Below, piece by piece: positions 1 through 3,000 of a stretch of DNA of 64,000 nucleotides. The DNA comes from Escherichia coli (GTDB taxonomy: Bacteria > Pseudomonadota > Gammaproteobacteria > Enterobacterales > Enterobacteriaceae): NCBI RefSeq assembly GCF_048403405.1, contig NZ_CP183129.1, one strand, 5' to 3'. The position numbers were made by a program. Positions within the stretch are counted from its first letter, which is position 1; each line of letters starts with the position of its first letter.

Positions 1-3000
1 TGCGGCCTGTTGTGGCGTCAGGACCCCTGCCTGATGCTCACCATAAAACGGCTGTTTCTCATTGCGTGCATCCGGTGAAAGCGTTCCCGGTGCACTTTGC
101 GTTTTTTGTGCATGAGCGACCGGACAACTTCCCGCCAGCGCCAGCGCACCAATCCCTTTCAGTAAACGTCGGCGTGACGGTTCATTCACGCCGTTTTCAT
201 CTTCATACTGCATAACACTTAATCCAGTCCCAGCACACCGCGAAGTTGCGCCAGATCTTCCGCCAGCGCAGTAATCGGCCCTTTCAGCGCGTTACGGTCG
301 GCATCGGTCAATTTGTCGTAGGTTTCAAAACCGTCTTTAGTACGGTATTTCGCCAGAATGGTATCGACCTTTTTGAAGTTGGCATCGACTTTTGCCAGCA
401 GTTCCGGGTTGGCTTTTTGTAGTTGTGGACGCAGCAGATCGACAATTTTCTGCGAGCCTTCAACGTTAGCCTGGAAATCCCACAGATCGGTGTGGCTGTA
501 GCGATCTTCTTCACCGCTGATTTTGCTGGCTGCCACTTCCTCAATCAGTCCGGCTGCACCGCCGACCACTTTTGAAGGTGGGAAAGCCAGTTCACTGATG
601 CGTTTTTGCAAATCGACCACATCGGTATAAAGCTGGTCAGCGTACTTATCCATCCCTTTAGTGGTGTTATCGCCAAACAATGCTTTTTCCAGACGGTGGA
701 AACCGGTGAATTTTGGATCGGCGGCTTTTTGCTCGTAATCATCTTCACGGGCGTCAATGCTACCATCCAGATCGGAGAACAGTTCAGCAATCGGTTCAAT
801 GCGCTCATAGTGCTGGCGCGTCGGCGCATACAGTGCTTTCGCTTTTTCGATATCGCCTGCTTTAATCGCGTCGGTAAAGGCTTTGGTGTCGGTCACCAGC
901 TGTGTGGTTTCCGCCATGACATACGCTTTATATGCAGTAATTGCACCACCAAGACTTAACAGCGCATCACTTTGCGCCGCATCCGCCGTTGCCTCACCTT
1001 TGACGATCAACTTCCCTTTCGGGTTAGTCAGCAGACCGCAGGTCATATCGTATTCGCCAGGCTGTAAATTCGCCGTCATTTTCTGGCTAAAACCAGGGGC
1101 GATATTTTCCCGCTCTTCCACCACCATCACGCCTTTGAGGATCTCCCACTCCAGCGCCTTCTGGCTGTGGTTCTGAATAATGAACTGTGTTTTCCCGGCG
1201 TTAACCGTAATGGTCATCGGTTCGCACTGTTTATCTGTCACAGTGACTTTGACCTGCGGAATATCAGCGGCGTTAGCCATAAAAGCAGAAGAGAACAGCG
1301 CAGCCACGCTAAACTGCAATGCGTTACGGCGGAAGTTAATGGTCATGACGAGACTATCCCTTTAAAGTATGTTGTAACTAAGCAAGAGTTTGCGTCGTAT
1401 TTGTTACGCGGAGCGAGACGCTGTCGCCCCTGCGCGTGGTGGCAGAGCAAATGCCACCAGCGCCGGGATGAGATAAATAAACCAGACGGCGACTTCGCTG
1501 ACACTTGGCGCTTCCTGATAGCCAAAAATCCCTTCCATCAGCGTGCCAAACAGCGAGTGAGTTGAGAGCACCGCACTCATATCGAAGGCGATTTCCTGAA
1601 AGTGGTTCCACAATCCGGCTTCATGAAATGCGCGAATGGCACCAGCCGCCAGCCCTGCGGCGACGAAGAGAATAAACAGGCTGGTCCATTTAAAAAATGC
1701 ACCAAGATTGAGGCGAATACCGCCCCAGTAGAGCAGGAAGCCGAGCACCACGGCTGTAGCAAGACCGAGCATTGCACCCAGCGGCGGCCAGATCCCGACA
1801 TCTTGTTGAAATGCCGCCAGCAGGAAAAAGACCGACTCCAGCCCTTCCCTTGCAACGGCAAAAAAGACCATCATCACCAGCGCCCAGCCATGATGATTTC
1901 CACGCTGCAATGCGCTATCGACTGCCTGCTCCAGTTGTACTTTGACGTTGCGCGACACTTTGCGCATCCAGAAAACCATCCAGGTAAGGATCACCACGGC
2001 GATCACCGCCACGATACCTTCAAACAGTTCCTGTTCTTTTTGCGGAAATTCGCCGGTGGTTTCGTTAATGAAGATACCCAAGCCCAGGCACAACGCAGCG
2101 GCAAGCAACACGCCAATCCACATCACACCAATCCATCGGCCTCGCTGGGTACGCTTAAGATAGCTGGCAATCAAACTGACAATCAGCGCGGCTTCAAGTC
2201 CTTCGCGCAACATAATGAGAAATGGAACAAACATGCCACCCACCCTTAAACGTTTTTCTGAGTCAATCTATGCAAAGAAAAGTAAATCGCAGTGATAGCG
2301 ATTATCATTACGGCAAAGAAAAATACAAGCGGAATGTTTATAAAATGATGTTGGAATGTAAACAAAGAGAGGTAATGCCAGGGGATATAAACAATTATTC
2401 CAGGTACAAAGATGGGATTGTTTACAACGAGCCATGTGTTCTTGCCAGATGCCGCGTAAACGCCTTATCCAGCCGACAAAACTGTCCAGACTCAATGCAT
2501 CAGAGCTTCCATGTAAAACTGATAAGCGGGTGTATCAAGCAATTTCGTCCATCCGCGATTATCAAATCTAACTTTTTGCCCGGAACATAATAACAGCTCG
2601 GGTGTTGGTGGCGTCAAAGTCGCTGAAGCGTTCCCCGAAGGCCGGGGCAGCCCACATGGATGTGGGCTGAGGGCGCGTCTTACAGGACATTACCTCGCGC
2701 CCGACCCGGTAGCCGAAGGGGATAAGCTGAAGGTACCGCGCAGCGGCGATTTTGTTCGCCAGAGCCCGGGGTGCAGGGGGTGGCGGCGATTGGCCGCCCC
2801 CTGCACCATTCAATTTATATGGCGAGGCACATTAAGGGAGCGCAACCCGCTGCTGAAGCCAAACAAAACCGCCGCAGGCTAAGTCCCTTAGCTTTCCTGC
2901 AACCGTGACGGCGGAGCCGAATGATAGTGCGCATCGGCCTCGGCAAAGCGTTTTTGCATCGCCGCTGACGGCGCTTTACCCAGCAAACTAAACACTACAA

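What the first reader, a model, noticed from the sequence alone, without database searches (positions are those of the whole stretch)
1404..2234. efeU is intact, implying a functional EfeUOB ferrous iron uptake system
The FTR1-family permease ORF is uninterrupted (276 aa from the ATG at 2232-2234, with REGLE motifs) and sits in a compact efeU-efeO-efeB operon behind a Fur-box-like sequence. In E. coli K-12 efeU is known to carry a frameshift that inactivates the system, so this window does not come from a K-12 derivative and the strain probably has acid-inducible Fe2+ uptake.
Basis: partly seen in the sequence, partly recalled or inferred. Interest (0 to 1): 0.3.

Follow-up and report, generated by a model that had tools for sequence, protein, structure and literature searches.

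The report
Intact efeU iron permease gene

Summary
Window 1404-2234 (- strand) is an uninterrupted 276-codon efeU. It scores above the curated cut-offs of the EfeU and FTR1 models and has two REGLE motifs. efeO follows 57 nt downstream, and the start of efeB 5 nt after that. The best Fur-box match in the whole window (15/19, at 2294-2312) lies 60 nt upstream of the ATG.

Alignment to K-12 puts its lesion at the loss of one G from a GG pair (efeU nt 106-107, window 2128-2129). This gives a stop at codon 37. The other 8 differences are synonymous. The K-12 deletion allele is in 367 of 5426 complete E. coli genomes. All listed carriers look like K-12-lineage or laboratory strains. At least 4952 genomes have the intact form.

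The window's EfeU is 276/276 identical to the O157:H7 protein (EFEU_ECO57), whose system is reported to be functional. The window differs at 3 of 64000 bases from clinical strain 4621, so it is not from K-12.

Caveats: only codons 1-71 of efeB lie in the window. Function and acid induction are inferred from published work, not tested here.

This is already known and of low interest.

The parts
1404..2234 (-). efeU coding sequence, 276 codons plus stop, uninterrupted (FTR1/OFeT-family inner-membrane iron permease)
   Evidence: ORF list and sequence. NCBIfam EfeU 331 bits and TIGR00145 352 bits. Pfam FTR1 300 bits. 276/276 identical to O157:H7 EfeU, which is UniRef100 representative EFEU_ECO57.
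2193..2207 (-). First REGLE (REXXE) motif, aa 10-14, in the first hydrophobic segment
   Evidence: Motif search on the translation. Codons CGC GAA GGA CTT GAA read from the sequence.
1836..1850 (-). Second REGLE (REXXE) motif, aa 129-133
   Evidence: Motif search. Codons AGG GAA GGG CTG GAG read from the sequence.
2128..2129 (-). GG dinucleotide (efeU nt 106-107, codons 35/36) that is reduced to a single G in K-12; both bases are present here
   Evidence: Pairwise alignment to K-12 efeU. Allele-specific probes against 5426 genomes.
2294..2312 (.). Fur-box-like site, 15/19 match to GATAATGATAATCATTATC, 60-78 nt upstream of the efeU ATG
   Evidence: Best-scoring site in the whole window on both strands, and the only one at 15/19. 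Sequence identical in K-12.
2272..2286 (+). CpxR-box-like sequence GCAAAGAAAAGTAAA (9/10 to GTAAA-N5-GTAAA), between the Fur box and the ATG; weak evidence on its own
   Evidence: 6 such sites in the window against 3.0 expected by chance. Position is consistent with the published negative CpxR control of efeU.
2235..2887 (-). putP-efeU intergenic region (653 nt) containing the efeU control region; the last ~90 nt before the ATG are identical to K-12
   Evidence: Alignment with the K-12 intergenic region.
219..1346 (-). efeO, 375 aa, periplasmic cupredoxin plus M75 (imelysin) protein, intact
   Evidence: NCBIfam PRK10378 773 bits over 1-375/375. Pfam Cupredoxin_1 and Peptidase_M75. 99% identical to the K-12 and O157 proteins.
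1..213 (-). First 71 codons of efeB (Tat-exported DyP-type haem peroxidase) with the SRRRLLK twin-arginine motif; the rest lies outside the window
   Evidence: Alignment to full-length EfeB of strain 4621, O157:H7 and K-12. Annotation of the matching genome.

Best explanation
The locus is the ordinary, wild-type efeUOB operon of a non-K-12 Escherichia coli. The window belongs to a clinical lineage that includes strains 4621, MS 69-1, TUM1226 and TUM14771.

Shown here:
- efeU is uninterrupted and encodes exactly the protein of E. coli O157:H7.
- It keeps both REGLE motifs.
- efeO is intact.
- efeB starts normally with a Tat signal.
- A strong Fur-box match lies in a control region that is identical to K-12 over the last ~90 nt before the ATG.

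Inferred from published work on identical or near-identical genes:
- EfeU is the seven-helix inner-membrane permease of an Ftr1p-like, oxidase-dependent iron importer.
- Periplasmic EfeO (cupredoxin plus M75 domains) and the haem peroxidase EfeB handle and oxidise Fe2+ and pass iron to EfeU, whose REXXE glutamates line the path.
- Fur represses the operon when iron is plentiful, and CpxAR represses it at high pH. The system therefore acts mainly under acidic, iron-poor conditions.

K-12 lacks this activity only because one G is missing at codon 36.
For: - Intact 276-codon ORF.
- Curated profile scores above cut-off: EfeU 331/255, TIGR00145 352/304, FTR1 300/25.
- Two REGLE motifs.
- 100% protein identity to O157:H7 EfeU, the exact sequence of EFEU_ECO57, seen on at least 1000 contigs.
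- The K-12 lesion is a single-G deletion giving a stop at codon 37. The other 8 differences are all third-position and synonymous.
- The deletion allele is in 367/5426 genomes and the intact allele in at least 4952.
- Two carriers listed as natural isolates share the K-12 protein accessions of nearly every flanking gene and the same IS3 insertion as K-12.
- efeO is full length.
- efeB is intact in the genome that differs from the window at 3/64000 bases.
- The Fur box is the best match in the window and its sequence is conserved in K-12.
- Literature read here: K-12 is frameshifted, and the system is functional in O157:H7 and Nissle 1917, Fur-regulated, and active at low pH (PMC7549933; PMC2808357; PMC3832793; PMC9174327; CpxR-negative control in PMC9600279).
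Against:
- 352 of the 423 efeB codons are outside the window, so operon integrity rests on the near-identical genome.
- The consensus scan found no sigma-70 promoter upstream of efeU, so the promoter position is not established from this sequence.
- The CpxR-like box is not above chance in the window.
- The primary paper (Cao et al. 2007) is not held in the library, so details come from papers that cite it.
- The substrate and the role of EfeB (Fe2+ oxidation versus haem deferrochelation) remain debated in the literature.
Confidence: 0.9

Rival explanations
1. efeU is intact but the EfeUOB system is still non-functional in this strain, because of a lesion in the unseen part of efeB or a regulatory change.
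For: Only codons 1-71 of efeB are in the window. The intergenic region differs from K-12 by a 123-nt block, an 11-nt indel, a 1-nt indel and several SNPs more than ~90 nt upstream of the ATG.
Against: Strain 4621, which differs from the window at 3/64000 bases, has a full 423-aa EfeB with both DyP domains. The Fur box and the proximal ~90 nt are identical to K-12. The large indel lies about 420 nt or more upstream of the ATG.
Confidence: 0.05
2. The window comes from a K-12 derivative in which efeU was repaired, by reversion or by engineering.
For: Published work did restore the K-12 operon by replacing it with an in-frame copy.
Against: Eight synonymous SNPs in efeU and multiple indels upstream separate the window from K-12. 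The first 25 kb of the window are 100% identical to clinical isolates. Only 3 mismatches separate the whole 64-kb window from strain 4621. yccE is frameshifted here but intact in K-12.
Confidence: 0.01
3. The operon is intact, but its main physiological role is not Fe2+ import. It would instead be extraction of iron from haem by EfeB (deferrochelatase), or Fe3+ uptake through EfeO and EfeU.
For: RefSeq names EfeB 'deferrochelatase/peroxidase'. A review of the field lists both peroxidase and haem-iron-removal roles for EfeB. B. subtilis EfeUOB takes up both ferrous and ferric iron.
Against: The papers read here attribute low-pH Fe2+ uptake to the E. coli O157:H7 and Nissle systems. Nothing in the sequence discriminates between these roles.
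Confidence: 0.15

Closest known systems
EfeUOB (YcdNOB) of E. coli O157:H7 (EFEU_ECO57; Cao et al. 2007, as cited in PMC7549933, PMC3832793 and PMC9174327)
   Same: EfeU is identical at 276/276 residues. EfeO is 99% identical. Gene order and spacing are the same, and so is the EfeB Tat signal.
   Different: O157:H7 carries an extra 1344-nt hypothetical gene in the putP-efeU intergenic region. There are a few substitutions in EfeO and EfeB.
efeU pseudogene of E. coli K-12 (b4490)
   Same: Same locus and neighbours (putA-putP-efeU-efeO-efeB-phoH). 99.1% nucleotide identity. The proximal promoter and Fur box are identical.
   Different: K-12 lacks one G at efeU nt 106-107, giving a 36-aa truncated product. 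K-12 also has a 123-nt internal deletion of the upstream repeat element.
Yeast Ftr1p/Fet3p high-affinity iron uptake (the OFeT family prototype)
   Same: FTR1-family permease with two REXXE motifs. It depends on a periplasmic or extracellular redox partner (Pfam FTR1; description in PMC9174327 and PMC3832793).
   Different: The bacterial partners are a cupredoxin/M75 protein (EfeO) and a DyP haem peroxidase (EfeB), not a multicopper oxidase.
Bacillus subtilis EfeUOB (Miethke et al. 2013, as cited in PMC3832793)
   Same: The same three components. The proposed sequence is EfeB oxidation, then EfeO binding, then EfeU transport.
   Different: Gram-positive context. It is reported to take up both Fe2+ and Fe3+. 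It was not compared by sequence here.

Membership tests
EfeU / FTR1 (OFeT) iron permease | Full-length match to the curated family profiles above their cut-offs | tested here: met
   NF041756 EfeU 331.2 bits (cut-off 255). TIGR00145 351.7 bits (cut-off 303.8). PF03239 FTR1 300.3 bits (cut-off 25.3), covering residues 1-275.
EfeU / FTR1 (OFeT) iron permease | Two REXXE (here REGLE) motifs | tested here: met
   REGLE at aa 10-14 and aa 129-133.
EfeU / FTR1 (OFeT) iron permease | Seven transmembrane helices | tested here: inconclusive
   Kyte-Doolittle hydropathy (window of 19, threshold 1.6) gives six clear hydrophobic blocks. The expected fourth helix, which carries the second REGLE, falls below the threshold. 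No solved structure of any relative is in the PDB by sequence. No dedicated topology predictor was run.
EfeU / FTR1 (OFeT) iron permease | Uninterrupted reading frame (not the K-12 pseudogene form) | tested here: met
   No stop or frameshift. The GG at nt 106-107 is present.
EfeUOB tripartite system | efeU followed by efeO (cupredoxin plus M75) and efeB (Tat-exported DyP peroxidase) in one operon | tested here: met
   efeO is complete, 57 nt downstream. efeB starts 5 nt after efeO with the SRRRLLK motif. efeB beyond codon 71 was seen only in the near-identical genome of strain 4621.
EfeUOB tripartite system | Iron (Fe2+) uptake activity at low pH | not testable with these tools
   Inferred from protein identity with the O157:H7 system, which is reported to be functional.
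Fur regulon | Fur box in the promoter region | tested here: met
   15/19 match at 2294-2312. It is the only site at 15/19 or better in 64 kb on both strands.
Fur regulon | Repression by iron through Fur | not testable with these tools
   The literature calls the system Fur-regulated.
CpxR regulon | CpxR box (GTAAA-N5-GTAAA) near the promoter | tested here: inconclusive
   A 9/10 match at 2272-2286, but such matches occur 6 times in the window against 3.0 expected. Negative CpxR control of efeU is listed in PMC9600279.

The most novel reading that the evidence does not exclude
The most novel reading not excluded concerns the repeat upstream of efeU. This lineage has a full ~250-nt, strongly structured dispersed repeat between putP and efeU (window 2596-2846). 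K-12 has a 123-nt internal deletion of it at this site. The full copy might change putP 3'-end formation or efeUOB expression relative to the strains in which regulation was studied. Nothing here supports an effect. The element ends about 360 nt upstream of the efeU ATG, and the proximal control region is unchanged.
Probability: 0.04. Interest if true: 0.2.

Novelty: already known. Interest (0 to 1): 0.05.

Why it matters
It matters little. The intact efeU is a correct and quick marker that the window is not from the K-12 lineage. It predicts that the strain has the standard low-pH, iron-repressed EfeUOB iron importer that most E. coli possess. The K-12 defect and the function of the intact operon were published in 2006-2007. 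The only small addition here is a census: the K-12 single-G deletion occurs in 367 of 5426 complete genomes, and the carriers listed all look like K-12-lineage strains. The rest of the K-12 gene differs only by synonymous changes, which fits a recent lesion.

Tried and rejected
- The sigma-70 consensus scan of 1-2950 found no promoter-like site, against 2.0 expected by chance. No promoter position is claimed.
- The Rfam gathering-threshold scan of the whole window gave nothing in or near efeU or its upstream region. It found only the cspA-type thermoregulator and a tRNA elsewhere.
- The PDB sequence search with EfeU found no solved relative.
- Cao et al. 2007 could not be read because it is not held. 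Its claims are taken from papers that cite it.
- The CpxR consensus search showed that the efeU-proximal match is not above chance by itself.
- I looked for a name or annotation for the upstream repeat in the MG1655 reference record at its yohP-dusC copy. No repeat feature is annotated there. I suspected RSA or another named E. coli intergenic repeat from memory, but could not test this.
- The first Pfam call failed because of a wrong frame for the efeB fragment and was repeated.
- Two scripts failed because loci fetched in parallel are stored together in one file.
- The idea of a repaired K-12 derivative was rejected on divergence.

Full report
**Observation.** On the - strand of the window an ORF runs from 2243 (GTG) to 1404. 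From the ATG at 2232-2234 it encodes 276 residues and ends at a TAA at 1404-1406. This ATG is the start that RefSeq uses in genomes matching the window. The product matches the curated EfeU equivalog model (331 bits, cut-off 255), TIGR00145 EfeU/Ftr1 (352 bits, cut-off 304) and Pfam FTR1 (300 bits) over essentially its full length. Two REGLE motifs are present, at aa 10-14 (window 2193-2207) and aa 129-133 (window 1836-1850). A simple hydropathy scan shows six clear hydrophobic blocks. A weaker one sits where the second REGLE helix is expected.

**Operon.** efeO (219-1346, 375 aa) starts 57 nt after the efeU stop. It matches its profile end to end and has cupredoxin and M75 domains. efeB starts at 213, 5 nt after efeO, with the twin-arginine motif SRRRLLK. 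The window ends after its codon 71. The 'compact efeU-efeO-efeB operon' is therefore seen, but most of efeB is not.

**Control region.** The putP-efeU spacer is 653 nt (2235-2887). A scan of the whole window for the 19-nt Fur consensus found one site at 15/19. It is GATAGCGATTATCATTACG at 2294-2312, 60-78 nt upstream of the ATG, and the next best sites score 14/19. A CpxR-like box, GCAAAGAAAAGTAAA (9/10), lies at 2272-2286. Matches of that quality occur 6 times in the window against 3.0 expected, so by itself it is weak evidence. The consensus scan found no sigma-70 promoter, and I do not place the promoter. The last ~90 nt before the ATG, including both sites, are identical to K-12.

**Comparison with K-12.** K-12 efeU is annotated as a frameshifted pseudogene in several records. 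A global alignment of the two genes (831 versus 830 nt) shows one indel. K-12 has lost one G of the GG at efeU nt 106-107 (window 2128-2129). This turns ATT GGT GTG ATG into ATT GTG TGA, a stop at codon 37. The other eight differences are all at third codon positions. The K-12 sequence translated in the shifted frame gives exactly the window's protein. The K-12 gene is therefore otherwise undamaged.

**How common each form is.** The efeU region is present in 5417 of 5426 complete E. coli genomes. I used 51- and 52-nt probes centred on the indel, sharing at most 26 contiguous bases, which is below the 28-nt megablast word. The K-12 deletion allele was found in 367 genomes and the intact allele in 4952. 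About 100 genomes matched neither probe, presumably because of nearby SNPs, and were not examined. The deletion carriers listed are MG1655, W3110, DH10B, MC4100, C600-type and other laboratory strains, plus a few labelled as natural isolates. Two of those were checked: EC06 (human gut) and SY3626C1 (chicken meat). Across 40 kb they carry the same protein accessions as MG1655 for nearly all genes, and the same IS3 insertion next to ycdU. They belong to the K-12 lineage. An intact efeU is therefore the species norm, and the frameshift marks the K-12 lineage.

**Identity of the window.** The first 25 kb are 100% identical to strains 4621 (blood, Houston), MS 69-1, TUM1226, TUM14771, GN02461 and one unnamed record. 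The next best genomes are at 98.6% or less. The whole 64 kb differs from strain 4621 at 3 positions. In that genome efeB is a complete 423-aa DyP-type peroxidase. The window's EfeU is 276/276 identical to that of an O157:H7 genome. The exact sequence is the UniRef100 cluster represented by EFEU_ECO57 and was seen on at least 1000 contigs, which is the counting cap. EfeO is 99% identical to the K-12 and O157 proteins.

**Mechanism (inferred from the literature).** Papers held in the library make the following points.
- EfeUOB is a tripartite system related to yeast Ftr1p-Fet3p.
- EfeU is a 276-aa permease with seven transmembrane regions.
- EfeB is a Tat-exported haem DyP peroxidase.
- EfeO is a periplasmic cupredoxin plus M75 protein (PMC9174327).
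- It is inactive in K-12 because of the frameshift, and it works when replaced with an in-frame copy (PMC7549933; PMC2808357).
- efeU is negatively controlled by CpxR (PMC9600279).

The window's permease is identical to the functional one and its proximal control region is identical to K-12's. The most likely state is therefore a working, iron-repressed, acid-favoured iron importer. The exact chemistry is still debated in those sources and cannot be addressed from sequence. The open questions are Fe2+ oxidation by EfeB before transport, Fe3+ uptake through EfeO and EfeU, and haem deferrochelation.

**Verdict.** Two caveats apply: most of efeB is outside the window, and function is inferred. 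Everything here has been known since Grosse et al. 2006 and Cao et al. 2007. The finding amounts to 'this is a normal, non-K-12 E. coli'.

**Side observations.**
- The putP-efeU spacer contains a ~250-nt GC-rich, strongly folding dispersed repeat at window 2596-2846. The fold z-score is -5.2 for bases 2640-2810.
- K-12 has a 123-nt internal deletion of this repeat at this site. It keeps an 86%-identical full copy between yohP and dusC.
- A 151-nt core of the repeat (2640-2790) is found at a median of 3 places per genome and up to 8. It has no Rfam match and no annotation in MG1655.
- yccE is frameshifted in this lineage (window 18234-19494) but intact in K-12. This is the mirror image of the efeU situation.
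- The only perfect CpxR consensus in the window lies 71 nt upstream of yccA, a known Cpx-activated gene.

Noticed in passing
window 2596-2846 (- strand orientation of efeU), in the putP-efeU spacer: A ~250-nt GC-rich dispersed repeat with strong predicted structure (z = -5.2 for bases 2640-2810). K-12 has a 123-nt internal deletion of it at this site, plus an 11-nt indel next to its long hairpin. K-12 keeps an 86%-identical full copy between yohP and dusC. A 151-nt core (2640-2790) occurs at a median of 3 and up to 8 places per E. coli genome. There is no Rfam match and no annotation in MG1655, so the family name is undetermined.
   Followed up: partly
window 18234-19494 (- strand): yccE is a frameshifted pseudogene in this lineage. 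The reading frame switches around codon 25-40, and it is annotated 'frameshifted' in strain 4621. It is intact in K-12.
   Followed up: partly
window 42919-42933 (+ strand): The only perfect match in the window to the CpxR consensus GTAAA-N5-GTAAA. It lies between tRNA-Ser (42710-42794) and yccA, 71 nt upstream of the yccA start at 43004. yccA is listed as a Cpx-activated gene.
   Followed up: partly
window 31743-32165 (- strand): An Rfam cspA thermoregulator match (157 bits) covers the 5' leader and coding region of cspG. It is the only cis-regulatory RNA family hit in the window.
   Followed up: no
L005 897-2240 (E. coli O157:H7 PV15-279, putP-efeU spacer): O157:H7 carries an extra 1344-nt gene annotated as a hypothetical protein on the opposite strand, between putP and efeU. 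It is absent from the window and from K-12.
   Followed up: no
L009 35587-36628 versus L011 35768-36085 (K-12-lineage genomes, beyond the efeB side of the window): The tandem RtT sRNA repeats next to a tRNA-Ser gene vary in copy number among K-12-lineage genomes. Six are annotated in EC06 and two in MG1655 and SY3626C1.
   Followed up: no
window 4555-4764 (- strand): A 69-aa ORF between putP and putA is annotated as a conserved hypothetical protein (WP_000979516.1) in PGAP records. The MG1655 reference instead annotates only the tiny ymdG in this spacer.
   Followed up: no
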